Part shown: positions 4,119-37,360 of the stretch, piece after piece | How positions within the stretch are numbered: the stretch's first letter is position 1 | How the letters are laid out: each line of letters starts with the position of its first letter | UHGV virus genome: UHGV-0045963 | Strand: one strand, 5' to 3' | Length of the DNA stretch: 41,161 nt | From: a virus | Notes under the pieces: model-generated | The model's input: only the letters and a program-made list of their open reading frames with translations | Database searches by the model: none | What the model was told of the DNA's origin: nothing | Position numbers and translations under genes: made by a program

Positions 4119-7100
4119 TTAACGTTCTTCCAGAGACTGAATCCGCTCTTTTATCTTATCCATTTCTCTGCGCTGCCATGCTGCCTCGATATAGAATAAG
4201 AGATCAGGTCTGACCCCCCATCTAGATCCTGCTGGCGTTATTTCAACGCGCTCAATGATGTCTTCCATTACCATCACTGGATTATCATCCTCATCAACAA
4301 TGATGCTCCCGTCATTATCAGTCAGCTGTATTTCCCTTTGGCCAGTAATGACGTCATCATATACTGCGGGATAATCGTCATAGCAAAGAAAGGCATAGCG
4401 GCATGTTGTGCTTTCTTCTTCCATGAGTCCGTGAGAAATAAGAACATCACGAAGTTGCTGCGCGATTACACCATGATGTATCCTCGCCCCTTCTTCTCCC
4501 TTTATAGCGACAGCGTTCAGCCATTTATAAGCGATATACCTGACGTCACCCCAGGCATCCAGCAATGCTTCGTCAGGAGAGACCGGCTCTGTCTTTAATG
4601 TTCCGTCACTGGTAACCACAGGATTGGAGCCAAGATAAACTGTCGAGAACCTGTTTCCCGGACCACCAAGAGCATTTACATTATCAAGATAAGGTTTAAC
4701 ATCTCCGTTCTCAAAAAGATGTTCGAGTGCGTTATATACCGCGCGACGTGGAGTACTGCTTCCGGAACCATGCAACGTTATCATTGCACCATCTGCTGAA
4801 GACGTTGTTTCACCGCCGCTAACGATTAATCTCTGAGCGGTAACATCATCAGACGGTACTTTCTTCGCAATAATGGCGTAATTGCCCTCCAGTTTGACTT
4901 CCGCGCGAACTTGTCCTGATGTACCTGCATGGACAGTCAGTGACTGGACGGCAACATCATCTGTGAAATCAACGGGTACAGGAACCGTCCTCACGCCGGA
5001 CGTCGACATAAAAGTAGGAAGCGTTCTGTTAGGAGTGGCTCCGTAGACAAAATCCCTTGAAACAAATTCTTCCTGTTTAATTTTCACCCTGAAACAATAC
5101 AAATCAGCCGGGTGACCATCGTGAACATAAGGATATTTTCTGTTGTTATCCCCTATGCTCCATGGGTTTAGAAAGTCTTCCCCACCGAAAATGTAGTACA
5201 GCCAGTTGTCTTTGATACAAACTGAACCAACACCAACCGCAGAGTTAACTATTCCGCCCTGATAAATCTGATCAGTAACATTAACCCACTCTACATTATC
5301 CAGACTCCACTCATTGACGTTAACTCTGGTCATAAATGTTCTTGGATAATTTCCTGCATAACGGTTATCAGGTTCTCCTCCTTCCCACTCACCAAATGCG
5401 CGCTCACTGCCAAAAATAATCAGCTCATCGCCAACTTTGGCAAAAGGAAGGTTTGAGTGATGAACATTATTTGGGAAGCGAAGAGAATTCCATGATGCAC
5501 CTAAATCAGAGCTTCTGTGCAATGAACTACCGGGTTGAGTACTTAATGTCCCCCTGGTCGTCAGATACAGAATGCCATCATAATATTTTACACATGGCTC
5601 AGATGCATTCGCCTCATATTCTGCAGGTATGCGTCTGCGAACAAAGCTACCAGGAGAACCGAAAGCATCAGAGAAATAGAGTATCCCAAGCTCGCGTGGA
5701 CCAATATCACCATTATGGTAGCCAACAGCAAAACTGTTATCGCTAATCGTCGCAAAACTGTGAATCTCAGTAACAGGAGTGCTTCCGTCAACAAAAGAAG
5801 AAATAGTTCCAAGACTGGTTTTTCTCCATGGTGACGAGTGAAATGATGTACCAAAACTCCAGTATCTACCCTCGTTATTCTGATCCACATCCTGAGTATT
5901 TTGCGTCGTAACTGTAAAAGTATTTTTATCAATAACAGTAGTCACCGTCATATTCCCGGTAACACCTGTAACACCAGAGTTTGAGAAGTTGACAAAATCA
6001 CCAGCAAATAATCCGTGATCAGTAATGCGAATATAAGCGACTTGCTGATTTGCTGCTTTCGTTATACCACCATAAACGCGAAGGCTGCGACTCATTGGAC
6101 GATCCCACAACTCTGCAACCTGCAGTTTATTTCCGCGCACGGTCCGCGTCTCAATTACAGCAAAAAGGCGATTTCTGACAACCCCCATACTCATGCAGTG
6201 ATAGTTAACTGTGGGATAGTTTTCATGTAAATCTGTAAGCCATTCCGGCGTTGTCCAGGTCTTCCCGTCATCTCCTGAGCGAACCCATGCAACATGGAGG
6301 TTATTTACACCATGGCGGTCTCCAGCCATAAAAGGCGCATAGATGACATTGTCATATACAAACGTTTTATCCTGCGTCCAGGCGTTGTACCACGGTGTAT
6401 CTGTAATTTTAAATAACTCTCCCTGGATAAAATCTTCAGAAGCATAAAAAAGAGGCTGACCCGGTATTCTCTCAAATAAAAAACGAGCATTTTTAAATCG
6501 GCTGACATCCGGAAGAGTTGATACTTTAAAAGTAAGCCCTAATCCGTCAATTTTATAACCTGGAGATGAGGCTTCAAGGCACGCGCTTATTGCAGTGGAA
6601 TCGTCATTTATACCATCACCAACAGCTCCAAAATCTTTGGGGCTAATAGCATCACGCATTTTATCCTGGAACGTTCGGTATACTGCCCCAGAACCATACT
6701 GAATAAACCAACCAAAACCACCAACAACCCCGGCGATTGCAGCATCGACATAATTACGCATTGAGCGATTATTTACAGCGTCCTGTTCAAGTGATGGATC
6801 TGCAAGGTTAGAAATTCTGTTTTGCTTTGCATCGTAATATTTTGCAAGCAAAGATGGTTTCATCAATGCACGTCTGAACCATCCAAAACATTGCTGGATC
6901 AGCATCGTCAGGTAGTCAAAGGCATCTTCATGCACTTCGGGGAAAAACTTTCCCTGATTGCGAAGGTCTGTCTCCTGCACTACATCAAGCACACGATCTA
7001 TCGTAATTCTCCATCCAGTAGCAAGCGGCGACGGAAGAACCACAGAACCGCCACTATAAGTGCCCGCCCCAGTTACCGTATAACCGGTATCCAGAACCAA

Positions 7101-7238
7101 TTCTGTTACGTTCCCGTTCAGGTCAGACACCTGAACAACCAGGTCGGATTTTCTGAAAATTCGAAAAGTATACGGAAACGATGTCGTAACGCCGTTACCG
7201 GTGTATTCGTTGTGGTCAACTTCGGTTGAGACCGTCAT
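4119..7238 (-). CDS. tailspike with sialidase-like (endo-N-acetylneuraminidase-like) central domain and C-terminal intramolecular chaperone (peptidase S74-like) domain
   Basis: 1039 aa; two Asp-box motifs (SGDDGKTW, SSDLGASW); C-terminal TSDGTLK ... GVIAQQL pattern of self-cleaving chaperone domains; phage fibre-type N-terminus (TGNGVTTSFPYTF). Confidence 0.85.
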   Translation of the reverse strand: MTVSTEVDHNEYTGNGVTTSFPYTFRIFRKSDLVVQVSDLNGNVTELVLDTGYTVTGAGTYSGGSVVLPSPLATGWRITIDRVLDVVQETDLRNQGKFFPEVHEDAFDYLTMLIQQCFGWFRRALMKPSLLAKYYDAKQNRISNLADPSLEQDAVNNRSMRNYVDAAIAGVVGGFGWFIQYGSGAVYRTFQDKMRDAISPKDFGAVGDGINDDSTAISACLEASSPGYKIDGLGLTFKVSTLPDVSRFKNARFLFERIPGQPLFYASEDFIQGELFKITDTPWYNAWTQDKTFVYDNVIYAPFMAGDRHGVNNLHVAWVRSGDDGKTWTTPEWLTDLHENYPTVNYHCMSMGVVRNRLFAVIETRTVRGNKLQVAELWDRPMSRSLRVYGGITKAANQQVAYIRITDHGLFAGDFVNFSNSGVTGVTGNMTVTTVIDKNTFTVTTQNTQDVDQNNEGRYWSFGTSFHSSPWRKTSLGTISSFVDGSTPVTEIHSFATISDNSFAVGYHNGDIGPRELGILYFSDAFGSPGSFVRRRIPAEYEANASEPCVKYYDGILYLTTRGTLSTQPGSSLHRSSDLGASWNSLRFPNNVHHSNLPFAKVGDELIIFGSERAFGEWEGGEPDNRYAGNYPRTFMTRVNVNEWSLDNVEWVNVTDQIYQGGIVNSAVGVGSVCIKDNWLYYIFGGEDFLNPWSIGDNNRKYPYVHDGHPADLYCFRVKIKQEEFVSRDFVYGATPNRTLPTFMSTSGVRTVPVPVDFTDDVAVQSLTVHAGTSGQVRAEVKLEGNYAIIAKKVPSDDVTAQRLIVSGGETTSSADGAMITLHGSGSSTPRRAVYNALEHLFENGDVKPYLDNVNALGGPGNRFSTVYLGSNPVVTSDGTLKTEPVSPDEALLDAWGDVRYIAYKWLNAVAIKGEEGARIHHGVIAQQLRDVLISHGLMEEESTTCRYAFLCYDDYPAVYDDVITGQREIQLTDNDGSIIVDEDDNPVMVMEDIIERVEITPAGSRWGVRPDLLFYIEAAWQRREMDKIKERIQSLEER

Positions 7239-7341: not shown

Positions 7342-7358
7342 ATTACCTTTCGGGTAAT
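7342..7358. promoter_or_regulatory. 17-bp palindromic operator-like site ATTACCTTTCGGGTAAT
   Basis: Perfect inverted repeat of the ATTACC-N5-GGTAAT family; lies in the divergent region between tailspike and the LexA-box gene. Confidence 0.6.
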
Positions 7359-7419: not shown

Positions 7420-7692
7420 ATGGAGAATATTAAGATGCAGCAGTATCACTATCCACTGGAAGACGGATTTACCGAAAGGATTCACACGCCGGGAGGCGTC
7501 AGGTCACTGGTGGAGGGATCGCACTTGATGAAATTACTCCGGGATCTCGATAAGGATGGATTTAATGTCGATGGCCCACTTGCCGAACTGACTGCACTGA
7601 TTAACTACGTCACCAGCTCACAGATGTCTATGCAGGATCTGCAAACACATCTCGACTATTGTGCCGAACAATTACGAAAACAAACCCGGTAA
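7420..7692 (+). CDS. small antirepressor-like protein (standalone homologue of the Ant C-terminal domain); an alternative start is ATG 7435
   Basis: Residues RIHTPGGVRSLVEGSHLMKLLRDL...ELTALINYV...DLQTHLDYC align with the C-terminus of the 8843..9529 protein (LIHSPSGVLGLTENSLLMNLLNQL...ELTTMFCYI...DIQTHAEYI). Confidence 0.6.
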   Translation: MENIKMQQYHYPLEDGFTERIHTPGGVRSLVEGSHLMKLLRDLDKDGFNVDGPLAELTALINYVTSSQMSMQDLQTHLDYCAEQLRKQTR

Positions 7693-7698
7693 ATTTAA

Positions 7699-7716
7699 AG
7701 GCCGCAAGAGCGGCCT
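7699..7716. terminator. hairpin shared by the convergent genes 7420..7692 and 7715..8443
   Basis: AGGCCGC AAGA GCGGCCT stem-loop; overlaps the stop codon of the minus-strand gene. Confidence 0.45.
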
Positions 7717-8443
7717 ATCGTTTCGCTTTGTGCTCATCCCAGCACGTTTTGCACCATGCCATTAAGCCGTCCGCATTTTGATTATTAGGGTAAAAGCTGG
7801 TTCGTTTTCTGCGGACATTACAAATTGGGCACCACTTCATATGGCGTGTATTCTTTGGGCCATCGAGACACCTTGCACACCACTTAGTCAATCCATCTGG
7901 ATTTTTTGACGATTTCCTGAATTTTTCATATGGAAGGTTTATTCTGCATCGCAAGCACTGCTTGCTACCACTTGAAACTCTGTTAGCTGATTCTTCTTTT
8001 GGCGGCGATACAGAAGGTATTCTTGCTGGCTCTGATACTGCCTGAGGTGCTTTTTTAGATGACTGAGACGATATGTCATCACCAGGGAATCTTCCATGAT
8101 ATGCCGGACGCGTTGACACTCCAGGTGGAAGCTCAGCTGTAAACGGCTTTGGCTGAATCAGTTGCCTCTCTTTTGCTAACTCCTGCTGTTTATAATATGT
8201 CTGGATTACCGCACTATCATAAGCAGGAGGTGCGGAAATATTAGGCGCATTACCTCCAGTTTTTTGAAACTGAGTAGAGGTGTGTTCTATCACCTGTGTA
8301 CGATTAATCGTTATCTCCCCATCTTCGGTCTTTATCGTTTTGTTATGATTAACGACCGTACGATCAGAGATCTTAGTCTTGTTCTGGTTGATAACGTAAA
8401 TAATCACCGCAACCACACCAACAACTATCCAGAAAACTTCCAT
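7715..8443 (-). CDS. membrane-anchored protein with C-terminal tandem Cys4 zinc-ribbon-like repeats, unknown function
   Basis: N-terminal TM (VFWIVVGVVAVIIYVI), Ser/Pro/Gln-rich linker, two repeats C-x2-C ... WC-x-x-C (CLRCR...WCARC; CPICN...WCKTC); RBS GAGGAAAAGCA. Confidence 0.6.
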   Translation of the reverse strand: MEVFWIVVGVVAVIIYVINQNKTKISDRTVVNHNKTIKTEDGEITINRTQVIEHTSTQFQKTGGNAPNISAPPAYDSAVIQTYYKQQELAKERQLIQPKPFTAELPPGVSTRPAYHGRFPGDDISSQSSKKAPQAVSEPARIPSVSPPKEESANRVSSGSKQCLRCRINLPYEKFRKSSKNPDGLTKWCARCLDGPKNTRHMKWCPICNVRRKRTSFYPNNQNADGLMAWCKTCWDEHKAKR

Positions 8444-8462: not shown

Positions 8463-8479
8463 ATTACCTTAAAGGTAAT
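8463..8479. promoter_or_regulatory. operator-like palindrome ATTACCTTAAAGGTAAT
   Basis: Perfect 17-bp inverted repeat between divergent genes 7715..8443 and ant. Confidence 0.6.
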
Positions 8480-8555
8480 ATCTTGCTTTCAGGTGATCAA
8501 GCGTTAAACGCAATCAACCAAATACGGTTGATTTTTATATTTATCAGCGTTTATC

Positions 8556-8572
8556 ATTACCTTTGCGGTAAA
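8556..8572. promoter_or_regulatory. operator-like palindrome ATTACCTTTGCGGTAAA
   Basis: Second copy 93 bp from the first, upstream of the ant leader. Confidence 0.55.
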
Positions 8573-8662
8573 TTTACATCGCACTCCTCTTGTGCCATAG
8601 TAATCGAGCACTGGCAAAATCCAGTGCCGGGATTTGCACCCCGGATTACTAAAAGGCGCATA

Positions 8663-8684
8663 CCACGCCAGACGTGGTTTTTTT
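8663..8684 (+). terminator. intrinsic terminator inside the ant leader
   Basis: Stem CCACG / CGTGG with loop CCAGA followed by T7; about 160 nt upstream of the ant ATG. Confidence 0.55.
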
Positions 8685-8842
8685 ATGCGTATAGCACAGT
8701 CATGCCAGAATTATGGTGGGACGTGCAGGGGCACCGAAAGGTGCGCCGGGTCCTTTTAGCCGGTAGTGCAAACCCTGTACGTCTCACCACCAACGAGATT
8801 TGCACCTCAGGTGGTGATTAACCATACTAAAAGGTGATTGCC

Positions 8843-9529
8843 ATGACTGCTAACGTAACCCCATCTGTTTTTCATTTTGAATCAGAAGCAACCATTCGAG
8901 CCATTGTTATTGATGGAAATCCTTGGTTTGTTGCCAAAGACGTTATTAAAGCTCTTCAACTGACAAACCCCACCATGTCAATCAAATCTCTTGATGATGA
9001 TGAAAGGGCTAAATTTAACTTAGGTCGTCAAGGCGAAACCAATATTATCAGCGAGTCAGGCCTCTACACACTGATCCTCCGCTGCCGCGATGCGGTGACA
9101 CCAGGCACTATCCCCTACCGCTTTCGTAAATGGGTTACAGGTGAGGTTCTTCCTCAGATCCGCCGCACCGGAAGTTACATTAAAAACTCGCTCCCGCAGG
9201 AAGAACGCATAAAGATGGTTGCCGACCAGGTAGCCAACGCCACAGCATCAGCAGTGATGCAGGCGATGAAGATAGAGAACAAAACCTACAGTGCCCCACT
9301 GAAGCCCGGCTACCGCAGCCTGATTCACTCGCCGTCTGGTGTTCTCGGCCTGACGGAGAACTCACTGCTGATGAATCTGTTGAACCAGTTACAGGAAGAC
9401 GGGCACGACGTATCGGGCGCGGCGGCGGAGCTGACCACCATGTTCTGCTACATCGTCGGTGTGAGCAAATGCCTGCGTGATATCCAGACTCACGCGGAGT
9501 ACATCAACGACAAAGCAGGATTCTTCTGA
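8843..9529 (+). CDS. antirepressor (Bro-N/Ant-type N-terminal domain plus C-terminal domain shared with 7420..7692)
   Basis: N-terminal Bro-N-like sequence (FHFESEATIRAIVIDGNPWFVAKDV...); RBS AAGGTG 6 nt before ATG 8843; the track start at 8834 is GTG. Confidence 0.75.
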   Translation: MTANVTPSVFHFESEATIRAIVIDGNPWFVAKDVIKALQLTNPTMSIKSLDDDERAKFNLGRQGETNIISESGLYTLILRCRDAVTPGTIPYRFRKWVTGEVLPQIRRTGSYIKNSLPQEERIKMVADQVANATASAVMQAMKIENKTYSAPLKPGYRSLIHSPSGVLGLTENSLLMNLLNQLQEDGHDVSGAAAELTTMFCYIVGVSKCLRDIQTHAEYINDKAGFF

Positions 9530-9600: not shown

Positions 9601-9617
9601 ATTACCCCAAAGGTAAA
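9601..9617. promoter_or_regulatory. operator-like palindrome ATTACCCCAAAGGTAAA
   Basis: Same family; 25 nt upstream of the 9643 ATG, near a candidate TTGCAG -35 element. Confidence 0.5.
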
Positions 9618-9832: not shown

Positions 9833-10165
9833 ATGCCTGATTTATCTTGGCTTGCGCCCAGAGATGCACAGCAATTGACAAGGTTTTATTTCATACTGTG
9901 CATTGCTTATCTTGCTGTTCATCTGATATGGGATGCCGTTTGCAAAGATACGCCTCCTTTTTCTTTGGATAAGTTGCAATACAAGATGAATGAGGTTTAT
10001 TCATCATCTACTTTTGCAACCAGCGCATTCTTCATTGTTATTCTGTTCGATATGAAGAATCCACTGAGAACTTCAGATGCTTTCATATTCCCATTAATTA
10101 TTGCTGCTCTAACTGGCTTTATGATCTCATTATCAGCAATAGTGCCAAAGAAAGTAAATAACTGA
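9833..10165 (+). CDS. polytopic small membrane protein (candidate immunity or partner protein of 9643..9831)
   Basis: 110 aa, three hydrophobic segments; start 1 nt after the preceding stop; followed by a terminator. Confidence 0.5.
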   Translation: MPDLSWLAPRDAQQLTRFYFILCIAYLAVHLIWDAVCKDTPPFSLDKLQYKMNEVYSSSTFATSAFFIVILFDMKNPLRTSDAFIFPLIIAALTGFMISLSAIVPKKVNN

Positions 10166-10168
10166 ATA

Positions 10169-10190
10169 AGCCCGCGTTGCGGGCTTTTTT
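10169..10190 (+). terminator. intrinsic terminator
   Basis: Stem AGCCCGC / GCGGGCT with loop GTT followed by T6. Confidence 0.7.
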
Positions 10191-10262
10191 ATGGACGAAA
10201 CAAAAGTCAGTGCTACACTCATTGACGCCACATCGAGGTGGCTTATAGATGGAAATGTCACA

Positions 10263-27123: not shown

Positions 27124-27140
27124 ATTACCTTTCAGGTAAC
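27124..27140. promoter_or_regulatory. operator-like palindrome ATTACCTTTCAGGTAAC
   Basis: Same family; preceded by TTGACA (27103..27108); in the intergenic region between the portal operon and the plus-strand tRNA unit. Confidence 0.55.
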
Positions 27141-27461: not shown

Positions 27462-27538
27462 GTGGCATTAGCTCAGTTGGACAGAGCAACCGCCTTCTAA
27501 GCGGTTGGTCGCAGGTTCGAATCCTGCATGCCACGCCA
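27462..27538 (+). tRNA. tRNA-Arg (anticodon UCU, decodes AGA)
   Basis: Hand-folded cloverleaf: 7-bp acceptor stem GTGGCAT/ATGCCAC, D-stem GCTC/GAGC, anticodon stem ACCGC/GCGGT with loop CTTCTAA, T-arm GCAGG-TTCGAAT-CCTGC, discriminator G and encoded CCA. Confidence 0.9.
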
Positions 27539-29677: not shown

Positions 29678-30270
29678 TGATTGCCATCCTGACGTTCTTT
29701 CAGTCTCTTCCTGGCTGCCGCTATGCGATCAGCAATTGTCACATTCACATTAACATCCAGGCGTTCTTTGAATGCGTTGACGTCGACGTGCTTACCAATC
29801 AGTTCGAGGTTCTTCACCTTGTCAGGCCATTTAATTTTTTTGAGGATTGTCTCTATCGAATCCTCGTTCATGTTCATGATGGTCGATGACAGATCAAAGC
29901 CACTAAGCGTAGTGCGCCAGATTTTCGGCCACTCGCGGATTGGCTTAAGGCTCCCATCGTCGTTGAGGATGTCGATCACGTCCATCTGGTCGATCTCCAC
30001 CAGGCGCATGAGAACGTAATCAGCACTGACGCGCATTCGTTTGTTGCGCTCTTCCATCAGCTCGGCAATCCGTTTTTGAATGCGTTCATCGCGCATCATG
30101 AGACTGGCTTTAACTGCCGCTGTATTTGGGGAGAATCCTGCGTTAATCGCAGCCTGAGTCTGGTTTTCAGGCGTTTGGATGTATGACTGGCAATAAGCCT
30201 CCTGCATTGCTGTTAGTGGCTTAAATTGCGTTGATTTGCGTTTATAGGTTTTAGGTTCAGCAGGCATCAT
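29674..30270 (-). CDS. terminase small subunit
   Basis: About 198 aa from the first in-frame ATG (track start is TTG); basic helical N-terminal region; coupled to the large subunit. Confidence 0.65.
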   Translation of the reverse strand: MMPAEPKTYKRKSTQFKPLTAMQEAYCQSYIQTPENQTQAAINAGFSPNTAAVKASLMMRDERIQKRIAELMEERNKRMRVSADYVLMRLVEIDQMDVIDILNDDGSLKPIREWPKIWRTTLSGFDLSSTIMNMNEDSIETILKKIKWPDKVKNLELIGKHVDVNAFKERLDVNVNVTIADRIAAARKRLKERQDGNQ

Positions 30271-30344
30271 AACCACCGTGGTAATAGTTACCGTTGTGGT
30301 AATAGTACCATGCAAAATAAAGCCGCCATAGTTGGCGGCAGTAT

Positions 30345-34088: not shown

Positions 34089-34105
34089 TTTACCCCTTAG
34101 GTAAT
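34089..34105. promoter_or_regulatory. operator-like palindrome TTTACCCCTTAGGTAAT
   Basis: TTACC-N5-GGTAA directly upstream of the 34086 start codon. Confidence 0.5.
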
Positions 34106-34150
34106 TAAAAACCACATAAGACACGAAATCAATAGATTTTAGAATATTTT

Positions 34151-34167
34151 ATTACCTCTAAGGTAAT
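34151..34167. promoter_or_regulatory. operator-like palindrome ATTACCTCTAAGGTAAT
   Basis: Perfect inverted repeat 46 bp from the previous site. Confidence 0.6.
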
Positions 34168-36570: not shown

Positions 36571-36587
36571 TTTACCTGTTGGGTAAT
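36571..36587. promoter_or_regulatory. operator-like site TTTACCTGTTGGGTAAT in the cro/cI divergent region
   Basis: TTACC-N5-GGTAA; additional half-sites GGTAAC (36534..36539) and GTTACC (36554..36559) nearby. Confidence 0.55.
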
Positions 36588-36641: not shown

Positions 36642-37226
36642 ATGAAAAGTATCCAGGACGTCCGCAGGCAAAATCTCAACGACTTGATCGACCGTGAATT
36701 CAATGGTGTTCAGACGCGGATGGCAGAAAAACTTGGAACTCAGGCAAATCTGGTAAACCGCTGGGCTCTTGGCAAGAAGGTTATCGGCGACCAGGTTGCA
36801 CGAAAAATTGAAGCTGCCGCCAATAAACCCCGTAACTGGCTTGATATTGATCGTTCGCTTTCTCAGGAGGGTTTTCAGCCTGTCGGCCCGAGCGATATAG
36901 GTCAGCTGGCGGCTCACAACCTGGAACGCTGGATGAGCGAAAGCCGCGACCTTTCAACACAGGGAAAACTTCACCGCGCATCCGGCGTCGCCCAGGTGAC
37001 AATCAGCCGCCTGTTAAACAATGAGGTCAGCGTTTCCATTTCCACTCTGGAGAATGTTGCATCCGCATTCGGGCGTCACGGATATGAACTACTGATTCAC
37101 CCGCACGACCCTGCGACTATCAACTATGACCGCTCACGCTACGCATTGTTACCCGAAACCGAGAAAGCAAAGATCGAAAGTTACATTGAATTTGTCATCA
37201 ACCAGAACGAAAAAAGCAAACAATAA
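36642..37226 (+). CDS. CI-like repressor with two XRE-type HTH regions and no recognisable LexA-like autocleavage domain
   Basis: 194 aa; HTH-like segments near residues 25-45 and 115-135; no Ala-Gly/Cys-Gly plus Ser/Lys S24 motifs seen; no SD sequence before the ATG; followed by a terminator and OL-like operators. Confidence 0.65.
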   Translation: MKSIQDVRRQNLNDLIDREFNGVQTRMAEKLGTQANLVNRWALGKKVIGDQVARKIEAAANKPRNWLDIDRSLSQEGFQPVGPSDIGQLAAHNLERWMSESRDLSTQGKLHRASGVAQVTISRLLNNEVSVSISTLENVASAFGRHGYELLIHPHDPATINYDRSRYALLPETEKAKIESYIEFVINQNEKSKQ

Positions 37227-37269: not shown

Positions 37270-37282
37270 ATTGCCAGATAGA

Positions 37283-37299
37283 TTACCTTACGGGTAATT
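37283..37299. promoter_or_regulatory. operator-like palindrome ATTACCTTACGGGTAAT (OL-like)
   Basis: Perfect inverted repeat just after the repressor terminator. Confidence 0.6.
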
Positions 37300-37343
37300 T
37301 TTTTAACTCATATCTATTGACACCAAACCAAATAAGCATAATT

Positions 37344-37360
37344 ATTACCTCAACGGTAAC
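37344..37360. promoter_or_regulatory. operator-like palindrome ATTACCTCAACGGTAAC overlapping a pL-like promoter
   Basis: TTGACA at 37317..37322, a -10-like CATAATTAT about 15 nt downstream, operator overlapping and just downstream; precedes the leftward early genes. Confidence 0.6.

What the first reader, a model, noticed from the sequence alone, without database searches (positions are those of the whole stretch)
8573..8842. Structured 270-nt leader with an internal terminator upstream of the antirepressor
Between the operators and the ant start codon lie two hairpins (8608..8627 and 8627..8644), a canonical terminator (8663..8684, T7 tail), a repeated 10-mer GATTTGCACC (8631..8640 and 8797..8806) and a long stem (TCACCACC / GGTGGTGA) next to the RBS. 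Ant expression therefore appears to require read-through or antitermination, or the promoter-proximal part encodes a short regulatory RNA of about 100 nt. P22 controls ant with an antisense RNA, so a comparable layer is plausible.
Basis: partly seen in the sequence, partly recalled or inferred. Interest (0 to 1): 0.5.

Follow-up and report, generated by a model that had tools for sequence, protein, structure and literature searches.

The report
P1-type c4/IsrK RNA switch guarding antirepressor
The "structured leader" is a known kind of phage RNA switch: a short terminated RNA, then a tRNA-like c4 antisense RNA cut from the same transcript, which very probably pairs with the antirepressor's ribosome-binding site and keeps the prophage quiet; it is real and well conserved, but ordinary.

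Summary
Positions 8709-8794 match Rfam C4 antisense RNA (77.8 bits, gathering score 45), and 8608-8684 match Rfam isrK (67.4 bits, gathering score 50).

The repeated 10-mer carries the a1 and a2 target sites (TTTGCAC). A second repeat, TACTAAAAGG, carries b1 and b2. Both are exactly complementary to the two exposed segments of c4: a' GTGCAAA (8766-8772) and b' CCTTTTAG (8752-8759). Site b2 overlaps the Shine-Dalgarno sequence of the Bro-N antirepressor gene (ATG 8843).

Across 54 specificity types from P1, P7, phiV10, Gifsy-1 relatives and viral contigs, the c4 loops and their four targets change together at fixed positions. The promoter, the terminator, the c4 fold and the TCACCACC/GGTGGTGA hairpin are all conserved, with compensatory changes.

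The most likely mechanism follows P1 immI. A read-through transcript yields a 77-nt c4 RNA, probably cut by RNase P, that blocks ant translation. The terminated 77-nt IsrK-like RNA carries decoy sites and probably counteracts c4, as in Gifsy-1.

Unlike P1 (icd) and Gifsy-1 (orf45), there is no leader ORF here: c4 targets the ant ribosome-binding site directly.

Verdict: a new member of a known kind, of modest interest.

The parts
8463..8479 (.). Perfect palindrome ATTACCTTAAAGGTAAT. Putative operator of the prophage repressor, placed next to the divergent leftward gene.
   Evidence: The motif ATTACC-N5-GGTAAT (up to 2 mismatches) occurs 15 times in the window against 1.5 expected. Copies flank an HTH_3 repressor candidate at 36642-37226. 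Binding is inferred.
8556..8572 (.). Second operator copy, ATTACCTTTGCGGTAAA, abutting the -35 hexamer of the leader promoter.
   Evidence: repeat D1, inverted repeat I1. The same operator-then-TTTACA arrangement is found in the epsilon15-like relatives L034, L040, L076, L067, L043 and ZX5.
8573..8601 (+). Sigma-70 promoter-like site, TTTACA-17-CATAGT with an upstream TG. The predicted start is about 8608.
   Evidence: A -35/-10 pair sits at the same distance before hairpin 1 in all relatives, including the annotated P1 promoter P1c4 (former P51b).
8608..8684 (+). IsrK-like short RNA, also the a1b1 leader module. It comprises 5' hairpin 1 (8608-8627), hairpin 2 (8628-8643) displaying a1 TTTGCAC (8633-8639) in its loop, single-stranded b1 CTAAAAGG (8649-8656), and the intrinsic terminator (8662-8678 plus U7 at 8678-8684).
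   Evidence: Rfam isrK RF01394 scores 67.4 bits (gathering score 50, model positions 1-77). c4-a1b1 RF03163 scores 36 bits, below its gathering score of 46.7. Hairpin 1 is 90.4% paired with 6 of 7 pairs changed on both sides; hairpin 2 is 99.5% paired. A terminator is found in 45 of 54 relatives.
8656..8690 (+). Outer helix GCGCAT (8656-8661) / ATGCGT (8685-8690) enclosing the terminator hairpin and U-tract. It can form only in read-through transcripts.
   Evidence: It appears in the minimum-energy fold. An enclosing helix of at least 4 bp is predicted in 49 of 51 distinct relatives, with different arm sequences: GCGACA/TGTCGT, GGCGAT/ATCGTC, and GCGGACA/TGTCCGT in P1.
8715..8791 (+). c4 antisense RNA, predicted mature form 77 nt. 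It has a 16-bp closing stem (8715-8730/8773-8788), hairpin 1 (8731-8744), hairpin 2 (8745-8764) with b' CCTTTTAG (8752-8759) in its loop, a' GTGCAAA (8766-8772) in the single-stranded junction, and a 3' ACC tail. The predicted RNase P site is AAUUAU|GG at 8714|8715.
   Evidence: Rfam C4 RF01695 scores 77.8 bits (gathering score 45, full model, 8709-8794). The fold is -48.5 kcal/mol, z -7.19. The helices are 99.5%, 92.9% and 100% paired, with many compensatory changes. The ends are placed by alignment with the annotated 77-nt P1 c4.
8784..8817 (+). Hairpin displaying a2. The outer stem is TCACCACC (8784-8791, which is also the 3' strand and tail of c4) with GGTGGTGA (8810-8817). The inner stem is GAG/CTC (8795-8797/8806-8808). 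Site a2, TTTGCAC (8799-8805), lies in the loop. This hairpin cannot coexist with the complete c4 closing stem.
   Evidence: I9, I14. A stem of at least 6 bp is found in 45 of 54 relatives. The outer stem is 90.1% and the inner stem 90.5% paired, with changes on both sides.
8827..8837 (+). Site b2, CTAAAAGG (8827-8834), overlapping the ant Shine-Dalgarno sequence AAGGTGA (8831-8837).
   Evidence: It is exactly complementary to b' (I8). In relatives the b2 site ends 6-16 nt before the start codon of the next gene. CTAAAAGG occurs on the + strand of the whole window only at b1 and b2.
8843..9529 (+). ant, the regulated gene. It encodes a 228-aa protein with a Bro-N domain and is the putative antirepressor.
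   Evidence: Pfam Bro-N, E 1.5e-19. It is 83% identical to ORF4 of phage vB_EcoP_ZX5. Overexpressing that protein lowered lysogeny about 1000-fold (PMC9782041).

Best explanation
The region is a P1/P7 immI-type c4 antisense-RNA cassette fused to an IsrK-type terminated leader. It sits in an epsilon15/phiV10-like prophage and controls a Bro-N antirepressor.

Proposed sequence of events:
1. One promoter (8573-8601), flanked by a repressor operator, starts transcription at about 8608.
2. Most transcripts stop at the intrinsic terminator. This gives a roughly 77-nt IsrK-like RNA that carries target copies a1 and b1.
3. Read-through transcripts continue through the tRNA-like c4 domain (8715-8791). 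This is released as a stable 77-nt RNA, with its 5' end cut by RNase P as in P1.
4. The two exposed segments of c4 pair with the transcript just downstream. Segment a' (GTGCAAA) pairs with a2, which sits in a hairpin loop. Segment b' (CCTTTTAG) pairs with b2, which overlaps the ant Shine-Dalgarno sequence.
5. This blocks ribosome binding, so no Ant is made in a lysogen. By analogy with P1, it also exposes the mRNA to premature termination or decay.
6. Ant of an incoming phage with the same a/b specificity is silenced in the same way.
7. The short RNA's a1/b1 copies compete for c4. The ratio of termination to read-through, together with the relative stabilities of the RNAs, would then set whether Ant escapes repression.

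Shown here: family membership, the fold, the complementarities, and their co-variation in relatives.
Inferred: transcription, processing, repression and the decoy role.
For: - Rfam matches above gathering score and over the full models: C4 at 77.8 bits (threshold 45) and isrK at 67.4 bits (threshold 50).
- Exact complementarity of a' to a1 and a2 (7 nt) and of b' to b1 and b2 (8 nt). The composite a-then-b motif occurs nowhere else in 41 kb.
- The layout matches the annotated P1 locus element for element: promoter, a1, b1, terminator-like hairpin, 77-nt c4, a2, b2 at the ribosome-binding site. Site lengths are the same (7 and 8 nt) and the spacings are similar.
- Co-variation in 54 distinct (b', a') types, with 34 different loops and 15 different junctions. 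Cognate a'-a2 complementarity of at least 7 nt is found in 100% of types against 5.9% for non-cognate pairs. For b'-b2 the figures are 94% against 3.4%. For a'-a1 the cognate figure is 91%, and for b'-b1 it is 67%. All sites sit at fixed positions.
- The loci were collected with a pattern in the c4 5' arm, not in the loops or the targets, so this co-variation is not built in by the search.
- Site b2 lies immediately before the start codon of the next gene in nearly all relatives.
- The c4 fold, hairpin 1, the a1 hairpin and the a2 hairpin are all supported by compensatory changes.
- Published experiments on homologues:
  - P1 c4 is a 77-nt RNA processed by RNase P, and its b' loop occludes the ribosome-binding site (summarised in PMC5320573).
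  - In Gifsy-1, a subset of transcripts from the isrK promoter reads through the terminator. The long mRNA is translationally silent, and IsrK supplied in trans activates it.
  - The compensatory mutants G28A/C162U and G31A/C159U map exactly onto the a1-a' pairing.
  - IsrK and the c4-equivalent RNA STnc1160 are both abundant in lysogens.
- The Ant homologue of phage ZX5 (83% identical) promotes the lytic cycle when overexpressed.
Against: - No expression, processing or repression data exist for this phage.
- The operator abuts the -35 hexamer rather than overlapping it, so repressor control of this promoter is uncertain.
- The P1 model (c4 represses) and the Gifsy-1 model (IsrK activates, and the c4 region was read as the coding sequence orf45) have never been reconciled by experiment. 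In Gifsy-1, co-expressing the c4-equivalent region with IsrK did not relieve toxicity as a simple titration model would predict.
- The a2 hairpin cannot form once c4 is excised, so its role does not fit neatly into the model.
- Cognate b'-b1 complementarity is weaker than b'-b2 across the family (mean 6.9 against 8.35 nt). In this window the two are equal.
Confidence: 0.82

Rival explanations
1. Gifsy-1-type activation only. The long transcript is silent purely because of its own cis structure. The short IsrK-like RNA is a trans-activator that opens it. The 8715-8791 segment is not an independent repressor RNA but part of a leader ORF that is translationally coupled to ant.
For: The Gifsy-1 locus is homologous: isrK scores 79.3 bits and C4 69 bits. 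Published genetics there were interpreted in exactly this way.
Against: - The frame that starts at the conserved UUAUGG (8713) stops after 17 codons at 8764-8766, 77 nt before the ant ATG.
- The minimum-energy fold keeps the IsrK and c4 domains separate, with no long-range a1-a' helix.
- The c4 stems change by compensatory double substitutions, which is the pattern of an RNA and not of a protein.
- This model does not explain the conservation and co-variation of a2 and b2 at the ribosome-binding site.
- The activator role of the short RNA is kept within the best explanation, as an anti-c4 decoy.
Confidence: 0.1
2. A plain attenuator. The terminator is the main control point, and Ant expression needs a phage or host antitermination factor or a metabolite-sensing alternative structure. 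The remaining hairpins would be incidental.
For: A terminator-like hairpin with a U7 tail lies between the only + strand promoter-like sites and ant.
Against: - No leader or riboswitch family matches the region.
- The conserved helix around the terminator encloses it rather than competing with it, so no antiterminator alternative is evident.
- This model does not explain the c4 match, nor the loop-target co-variation.
- In Gifsy-1, read-through occurs without a dedicated factor.
Confidence: 0.04
3. P22 sar-like control. A small RNA transcribed from the opposite strand across the ant start pairs with the ant mRNA.
For: One terminator-like pattern on the - strand at 8669-8655 is the mirror image of part of the + strand structure.
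Against: - No promoter-like site on the - strand between 8221 and 10000.
- No match to the Rfam sar family at E<=1.
- Neither neighbouring ORF tested (7420-7692 and 7715-8443) matched an Arc/Mnt family in Pfam.
- All conserved structure and covariation read on the + strand.
Confidence: 0.01
4. The segment is protein-coding. Phage ZX5, for example, carries an 'ash family protein' CDS annotated over the c4 homologue.
For: A CDS is annotated at L126 1672-1785. Mechanical ORFs overlap the region: 8483-8821 on the + strand and 8683-8805 on the - strand.
Against: - The substitution pattern is paired compensatory change in the stems, together with hypervariable loops that track their RNA targets.
- The covariance-model scores lie far above threshold.
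Confidence: 0.01

Closest known systems
immI operon of phages P1 and P7 (c4 antisense RNA, icd, ant; Citron & Schuster 1990; Rfam RF01695 and RF03163)
   Same: - The order of elements on one strand is the same: promoter, a1, b1, terminator-like hairpin, 77-nt c4 with b' in a hairpin loop and a' in the junction, a2 just after c4 in a hairpin loop, and b2 over a ribosome-binding site.
- The a site is 7 nt and the b site 8 nt in both.
- The sequence around the RNase P site is identical (AAUUAU|GGUGGG), and both have a 3' ACC tail.
- An operator of the main repressor sits upstream.
- Specificity varies mainly in a' between close relatives. The window has GTGCAAA where phiV10 and ZX5 have ACGCCAA, with b' unchanged. 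P1 and P7 differ in the same way.
   Different: - There is no icd-like leader ORF. Site b2 covers the ant Shine-Dalgarno sequence itself.
- The regulated protein is a Bro-N protein with no detectable similarity to P1 Ant1 (E 0.11).
- The terminator is a tighter canonical hairpin (5-nt loop, U7), whereas P1 has a loop of about 10 nt.
- The host phage is an epsilon15-like integrated podovirus, not a plasmid prophage.
- The operator is a palindrome of a different sequence.
isrK-orf45-anrP locus of Salmonella prophage Gifsy-1 (Hershko-Shalev et al. 2016, PMC4825925; Rfam RF01394)
   Same: - The three-hairpin terminated sRNA is homologous.
- The same C4-family domain lies downstream, where it is known as STnc1160/orf45.
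- Site b2 lies over the antirepressor ribosome-binding site.
- Read-through of the terminator is needed for the mRNA.
   Different: - Gifsy-1 has a 45-codon ORF that starts at the c4 5' end and is coupled to anrP. The window's frame stops after 17 codons.
- The a and b specificities differ: TTGGCGT and ATCACCG in Gifsy-1.
- AnrP is unrelated in sequence to the window's Ant.
- The Gifsy-1 locus lies next to the Q antiterminator gene in a lambdoid late region.
c4 and isrK pair upstream of a Bro-N gene in APSE phages of Hamiltonella (Rouil et al. 2020, PMC7313666)
   Same: The same two Rfam families sit in tandem directly upstream of a Bro-N gene in a short-tailed temperate phage. The a' and b' regions match the region upstream of that gene. 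This is the closest published description of this exact arrangement.
   Different: DNA identity is only about 73-75% over roughly half of the leader. The specificities differ. The APSE authors treat IsrK as a separate sRNA of unclear role.
P4 CI RNA with seqA and seqC (cited as the structural analogue in PMC4825925)
   Same: A small RNA processed from the leader of the operon it controls. It pairs with complementary sites both upstream and downstream of itself on the same transcript.
   Different: According to that paper, the outcome in P4 is premature transcription termination of the replication genes, not occlusion of an antirepressor ribosome-binding site. No sequence comparison was made here.
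P22 immI (mnt, arc, ant, sar RNA)
   Same: The biological role is the same: keeping an antirepressor silent in a lysogen with the help of a small RNA. The map position is also comparable, in that the ant gene lies next to the tailspike gene (here ORF 4119-7238); the P22 gene order is from my own knowledge.
   Different: sar is a cis-antisense RNA from the opposite strand, and P22 adds the Arc and Mnt repressors (my own knowledge). Neither feature was found here.

Membership tests
C4 antisense RNA (Rfam RF01695; P1/P7 c4) | Match to the family covariance model at or above the curated gathering score, over the full length. | tested here: met
   77.8 bits against a gathering score of 45, model positions 1-87 of 87, window 8709-8794, + strand.
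C4 antisense RNA (Rfam RF01695; P1/P7 c4) | A long closing stem enclosing two hairpins, supported by covariation. | tested here: met
   Minimum free energy -48.5 kcal/mol, z -7.19. In 49 relatives the three helices are 99.5%, 92.9% and 100% paired, with 7, 4 and 1 pairs changed on both sides.
C4 antisense RNA (Rfam RF01695; P1/P7 c4) | Exposed segments a' and b' complementary to sites a2 and b2 downstream on the same strand, with b2 at a ribosome-binding site. | tested here: met
   a' 8766-8772 pairs with a2 8799-8805. b' 8752-8759 pairs with b2 8827-8834, which overlaps the Shine-Dalgarno sequence at 8831-8837. Cognate-specific co-variation is seen across 54 types.
C4 antisense RNA (Rfam RF01695; P1/P7 c4) | A second copy of the targets (a1, b1) upstream of c4. 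| tested here: met
   a1 at 8633-8639 and b1 at 8649-8656. The c4-a1b1 model scores only 36 bits against a gathering score of 46.7, but the positions match P1 and the relatives.
C4 antisense RNA (Rfam RF01695; P1/P7 c4) | The mature 77-nt RNA is released from a longer transcript by RNase P. | not testable with these tools
   Only the sequence determinants could be checked. The AAUUAU|GGUGGG context is identical to P1, and the acceptor-like stem is followed by ACC(A). The TTATGG columns were fixed by the search pattern, so their invariance in the alignment carries no weight.
C4 antisense RNA (Rfam RF01695; P1/P7 c4) | Represses antirepressor synthesis and confers superinfection immunity. | not testable with these tools
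   Inferred from homology. A genetic test is needed.
P1 immI operon (c4-icd-ant) | b2 covers the ribosome-binding site of a small leader gene (icd) whose translation is needed for ant expression. | tested here: not met
   The ORF that starts 8 nt after b2 is the 228-aa Bro-N protein itself. Icd-like ORFs of 56-81 aa follow b2 only in P1-like relatives and a few others.
IsrK sRNA (Rfam RF01394; Gifsy-1) | Full-length match to the covariance model above the gathering score: two 5' hairpins and a Rho-independent terminator. | tested here: met
   67.4 bits against a gathering score of 50, model positions 1-77 of 77, window 8608-8684. The terminator is confirmed.
IsrK sRNA (Rfam RF01394; Gifsy-1) | Read-through of its terminator produces the mRNA of a downstream antirepressor-like gene. 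| tested here: inconclusive
   The arrangement fits: there is no other + strand promoter-like site before ant. Transcripts were not observed.
IsrK sRNA (Rfam RF01394; Gifsy-1) | An upstream ORF (orf45) starting at the c4 5' end and translationally coupled to the antirepressor. | tested here: not met
   The frame from ATG 8713 ends at TAG 8764-8766 after 17 codons.
IsrK sRNA (Rfam RF01394; Gifsy-1) | Hfq binding. | not testable with these tools
   No assay is available.
P22-type sar antisense control of ant | A small RNA encoded on the strand opposite to ant and overlapping its start, with arc and mnt nearby. | tested here: not met
   No promoter-like site on the - strand between 8221 and 10000. 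No sar match at E<=1. Neither neighbouring ORF tested (7420-7692 and 7715-8443) matched an Arc/Mnt family in Pfam.

The most novel reading that the evidence does not exclude
The promoter-proximal terminated RNA (IsrK, which is the a1b1 module) may be a built-in decoy for c4 in every c4 cassette, P1 included. One promoter would then make three interacting RNAs: the decoy, the antisense RNA and the target. The strength of the terminator would set the decoy-to-c4 ratio and so decide whether the antirepressor is made.

This reading would unite the P1 model and the Gifsy-1 model. The Gifsy-1 paper does not cite the P1 work, and Rfam keeps isrK outside the c4 clan. It would also reinterpret orf45/STnc1160 as c4, and the published IsrK compensatory mutants as a1-a' pairs.
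Probability: 0.4. Interest if true: 0.5.

Novelty: new member of a known kind. Interest (0 to 1): 0.3.

Why it matters
For this window, the finding turns 235 nt of "structured leader" into a fully parsed regulatory cassette, and it assigns the Bro-N gene a P1-style RNA immunity layer.

This layer is not annotated in any of the following:
- the identical prophages of K1/APEC E. coli, where PGAP lists only proteins;
- phiV10;
- phage ZX5, where the c4 homologue is annotated as an "ash family protein" and the authors call antirepressor control unresolved.

The practical consequence is a prediction. This prophage and phiV10/ZX5-type phages share b but differ in a (TTTGCAC against TTGGCGT). They should therefore be heteroimmune at this layer, as P1 and P7 are.

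More generally, the comparison shows that IsrK in Gifsy-1 and the a1b1 leader of P1 are the same module. It also shows that the terminator, a helix enclosing it, and an a2-displaying hairpin that overlaps the c4 3' strand are conserved parts of the cassette. These are testable refinements of a known system, not a new one.

Tried and rejected
1. A long-range helix between 8697-8707, just 5' of c4, and 8839-8849, across the ant ATG. It is 11 nt at 91% complementarity (I2) and is present in the minimum-energy fold. It looked like a cis lock on the start codon, but it is not conserved. Cognate best helices average 5.71 nt against 5.40 for non-cognate pairs, and helices of at least 7 nt occur in 11 of 51 loci against a 13% background. 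I treat it as chance or lineage-specific.

2. My first assignment of the a and b sites was swapped. Comparison with the annotated P1 record corrected it.

3. My first parse of c4 3' ends cut CACCACC too early and hid the a' matches. It was fixed.

4. The fold of the ant 5' UTR alone (8795-8860) is not better than shuffles (z -0.75). No autonomous structure sequesters the ribosome-binding site.

5. Columns for the terminator stem in the MAFFT alignment give only 53% pairing because the stems are out of register. The per-sequence scan and per-sequence folds were used instead.

6. Weak Rfam hits at 10096-10200 (MicC, Trp and Thr leaders) are far below their gathering scores. I read them, without a further test, as reflecting the hairpin and T-run visible in the MicC alignment of that call.

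7. Two look-ups of P1 papers failed or were not held. P1 facts are therefore taken from the GenBank annotation and from a secondary summary.

8. P22-like, attenuator-only and protein-coding readings were considered and rejected. See the rival explanations.
Full report
**1. The observation**

- Hairpin 1, GCACTGG/CCAGTGC, at 8608-8627.
- Hairpin 2, CCGGG/CCCGG, at 8627-8644.
- A terminator, ACCACG/CGTGGT, at 8662-8678 with seven T at 8678-8684.
- The 10-mer GATTTGCACC at 8631-8640 and 8797-8806.
- The stem TCACCACC (8784-8791) / GGTGGTGA (8810-8817).

The RNA 8608-8860 folds far better than shuffled sequence: -104.1 against -75.6 +/- 5.1 kcal/mol, z -5.55.

Two corrections are needed. Positions 8573-8601 are a promoter-like site (TTTACA-17-CATAGT), so the transcribed leader is about 235 nt. 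The ant ATG is at 8843.

**2.

A scan against Rfam gives two full-length matches above the curated thresholds:
- C4 antisense RNA (RF01695) at 8709-8794, 77.8 bits against a gathering score of 45.
- isrK (RF01394) at 8608-8684, 67.4 bits against a gathering score of 50.

The a1b1 target motif (RF03163) also matches at 8595-8647, but below its threshold (36 bits against 46.7).

The c4 segment is the most stable element of the leader (-48.5 kcal/mol, z -7.19). It has a 16-bp closing stem, two hairpins, an unpaired junction and a 3' ACC tail.

**3. Anatomy by comparison with P1**

The P1 record annotates, in order, the operator Oc4, the promoters, a1, b1, the 77-nt c4, a2, b2 and icd (sequence). 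The window aligns with it element by element:

| Element | Window | Note |
|---|---|---|
| a sites | TTTGCAC: a1 8633-8639, a2 8799-8805 | a1 lies in the loop of hairpin 2 |
| a' | GTGCAAA, 8766-8772 | in the c4 junction |
| b sites | CTAAAAGG: b1 8649-8656, b2 8827-8834 | |
| b' | CCTTTTAG, 8752-8759 | in the loop of the second c4 hairpin |

- Site lengths match P1 (7 and 8 nt). The predicted c4 is 77 nt, as in P1.
- The sequence around the P1 RNase P site is identical (AAUUAU|GGUGGG).
- Site b2 overlaps the ant Shine-Dalgarno sequence (AAGGTGA, 8831-8837), 8 nt before the ATG.
- In the whole 41-kb window, the composite "a then b" motif occurs only at these two places. CTAAAAGG occurs on the + strand only at b1 and b2.

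**4. Comparative test**

A pattern placed in the c4 5' arm, not in the loops or the targets, retrieved 120 viral contigs. I added P1, phiV10 and TL-2011b. In all, 112 loci could be parsed. They fall into 54 distinct (b', a') combinations, with 34 different b' loops and 15 different a' junctions.

Each c4 matches its own targets and not those of other loci:

| Pairing | Cognate, at least 7 nt | Non-cognate, at least 7 nt |
|---|---|---|
| a'-a2 | 100% | 5.9% |
| b'-b2 | 94% | 3.4% |
| a'-a1 | 91% | 7.1% |
| b'-b1 | 67% | 1.9% |

The sites sit at fixed positions in most loci. Relative to the c4 start, a1 is near -82 and b1 near -66. After the c4 end, a2 is at +4 to +11 and b2 at +33 to +42.

Other conserved features:
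- Site b2 ends 6-16 nt before the start codon of the next gene in nearly every locus. That gene may be Icd-like, Rha-like or Bro-N, so the RNA cassette is modular with respect to its cargo.
- A -35/-10 pair lies at a constant distance before hairpin 1 in all loci. It coincides with the annotated P1 promoter P1c4, formerly P51b.
- On a 49-sequence alignment of whole leaders, the c4 helices are 99.5%, 92.9% and 100% paired. Hairpin 1 is 90.4% paired, with 6 of 7 pairs changed on both sides. The a1 hairpin is 99.5% paired.
- A terminator-like hairpin lies between b1 and c4 in 45 of 54 types, with different stem sequences. The nine exceptions are P1/P7-like. These carry a hairpin with a longer loop followed by ATTTTTGT.

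**5. The long stem**

TCACCACC is the 3' strand and tail of c4. Its alternative partner, GGTGGTGA, lies just beyond a2. Together with an inner GAG/CTC stem, this forms a hairpin that displays a2 in an 8-nt loop. That loop is identical to the a1 loop (ATTTGCAC).

The hairpin is conserved: a stem of at least 6 bp in 45 of 54 types, with the outer stem 90.1% and the inner stem 90.5% paired. One covarying pair cannot be explained by the c4 fold. Alignment column 201 varies between U and C, and its c4 partner is a G that pairs with either. Its hairpin partner, column 240, nevertheless switches between A and G to match.

This hairpin cannot coexist with the complete c4 closing stem. Its role remains open. 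It may act before processing, or it may present a2 for loop-junction pairing.

**6. A further conserved element**

A helix, GCGCAT 8656-8661 / ATGCGT 8685-8690, encloses the terminator hairpin and the U-tract. An equivalent helix is predicted in 49 of 51 distinct relatives with different arm sequences, P1 included.

Its 3' strand lies beyond the termination point, so it can form only in read-through RNA. It starts at the last base of b1. Site b1 may therefore be more exposed in the short RNA than in the long one. That is an inference.

**7. Link to Gifsy-1 IsrK**

The Gifsy-1 locus carries isrK (79.3 bits), c4-a1b1 (48.1 bits) and C4 (69 bits) in the same order. Mapping the numbering of the published paper onto the sequence gives three results:
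- G28 and G31 of IsrK lie in a1 (TTGGCGT).
- C162 and C159 lie in a' (ACGCCAA) of the c4 homologue.
- The first AUG of "orf45" is the conserved UUAUGG at the c4 5' end.

The published compensatory mutants G28A/C162U and G31A/C159U are therefore experimental evidence for a1-a' pairing. The processed stable RNA STnc1160 lies downstream of IsrK, where Rfam places the c4 match, so it is probably the c4 homologue.

That paper shows several things:
- A subset of transcripts from the isrK promoter reads through the terminator.
- The long mRNA is transcribed but not translated.
- IsrK in trans activates translation more than 100-fold.
- IsrK G28A and G31A are inactive.

It never mentions P1 c4. Read in the P1 framework, IsrK acts as a decoy that occupies c4.

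In the window, the frame equivalent to orf45 stops after 17 codons (8713-8766). The translational-coupling part of the Gifsy-1 model therefore cannot apply here.

**8. The regulated gene and the phage**

The 228-aa product has a Bro-N domain (E 1.5e-19). It is 83% identical to ORF4 of the Uetakevirus vB_EcoP_ZX5. Overexpressing that protein lowered the prophage titre from 10^9 to 10^6. The product is unrelated in sequence to P1 Ant1 and to Gifsy-1 AnrP.

The locus resembles phiV10 and TL-2011b. It is 100% identical to prophages in K1/APEC E. coli genomes, where no RNA gene is annotated.

ZX5 and phiV10 share the b sites with the window but carry TTGGCGT/ACGCCAA at a1, a2 and a'. This coordinated three-site change is the kind of difference that separates P1 from P7.

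**9. Operators**

The palindrome ATTACC-N5-GGTAAT occurs 15 times in the window against 1.5 expected. Copies include 8463-8479 and 8556-8572, the latter abutting the -35 hexamer. Others lie on both sides of an HTH_3 protein at 36642-37226.

Binding has not been tested.

**10. Mechanism, with the basis for each step**

- *Shown by sequence and comparison:* family membership, the fold, the four complementarities and their co-variation, the position of b2 on the Shine-Dalgarno sequence, the conserved promoter and the conserved terminator.
- *From established knowledge of P1 (GenBank annotation; summary in PMC5320573):* c4 is cut out by RNase P, and its b' loop occludes the ribosome-binding site while a' gives specificity.
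- *From the Gifsy-1 experiments:* partial read-through, a silent long mRNA, and activation by the short RNA.
- *Inferred for this phage:* all of the above happen here, and the short RNA works by titrating c4.

**11. Comparison and verdict**

The closest published description of this exact arrangement, c4 plus isrK directly upstream of a Bro-N gene in a short-tailed temperate phage, is for the APSE phages.

The window's cassette is a clear member of the c4 and IsrK families. It is a variant of the P1 operon only in lacking a leader ORF. It names the wrong model (P22 sar) and overlooks c4.

Novelty: a new member of a known kind. Interest: modest.

The one point that may interest specialists is the unification of the IsrK and a1b1/c4 literatures, together with the conserved extra helices. 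I could not find that link in the papers I searched.

Noticed in passing
window 3453-37360 (15 sites, e.g. 7342-7358, 8463-8479, 8556-8572, 9601-9617, 27124-27140, 30269-30303, 34089-34167, 36571-36587, 37282-37360): A 17-bp palindromic motif, ATTACC-N5-GGTAAT, is scattered over the whole window: 15 copies against 1.5 expected by chance. It often sits at the starts of transcription units and on both sides of an HTH_3 (Cro/CI-type) protein at 36642-37226. This looks like a dispersed operator set for the prophage repressor, reminiscent of the scattered C1 operators of P1.
   Followed up: partly
window 7420-7692 (+): A 90-aa ORF just upstream, preceded by its own operator copy at 7342-7358, is 42% identical (E 4e-20) to residues 144-220 of the antirepressor. 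It is a free-standing paralogue of the Ant C-terminal domain. phiV10, TL-2011b and ZX5 have an 85-aa hypothetical gene at the same place. It might modulate Ant or mimic it; this was not analysed.
   Followed up: partly
window 8656-8661 / 8685-8690: A helix encloses the terminator hairpin and its U-tract, so it can form only in read-through transcripts. It is predicted in 49 of 51 relatives, including P1, with different arm sequences. I did not find it mentioned in the papers I read.
   Followed up: yes
window 8697-8707 / 8839-8849: An 11-nt, 91% complementary pair of segments brackets c4 and covers the ant start codon. It is part of the minimum-energy fold but is not conserved above background in 51 relatives.
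   Followed up: yes
L032 9756-11106 (IMGVR_UViG_2671181028_000005): Three c4 cassettes lie in tandem, 656 nt apart. Each has a different a'/b' specificity and each is followed by a similar gene of about 120 aa (MATVPTSPFLKIEVVNGKAV...). This is an array of differently addressed c4-gene modules in one phage.
   Followed up: no
L126 1672-1785 (phage vB_EcoP_ZX5, MW722083): A CDS annotated as 'ash family protein' lies entirely over the c4 homologue and its a2 hairpin. It is probably a mis-annotation of an RNA gene.
   Followed up: partly
L125 1087-1176 (Gifsy-1): Rfam isrK (RF01394) and c4-a1b1 (RF03163, clan CL00128) both match the same DNA above their gathering scores, yet isrK is not listed in that clan. 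The two families appear to describe one module.
   Followed up: partly
window 7715-8443 (-): The divergent 242-aa ORF has a hydrophobic N-terminus and a Cys-rich C-terminus. Its only Pfam match is weak and below threshold (Stc1 domain, 21 bits against 24.8). Its start lies next to the operator at 8463-8479. TL-2011b carries only a 'similar to hypothetical protein' misc_feature there.
   Followed up: no
window 4119-7238 (-) and 27462-27538 (+): A 1039-aa tailspike-like ORF lies next to the ant locus. The identical prophage region occurs in O2:K1:H5 and other avian and human E. coli, so a K1-capsule specificity is possible but was not tested. A tRNA-Arg(TCT) gene lies at 27462-27538.
   Followed up: no
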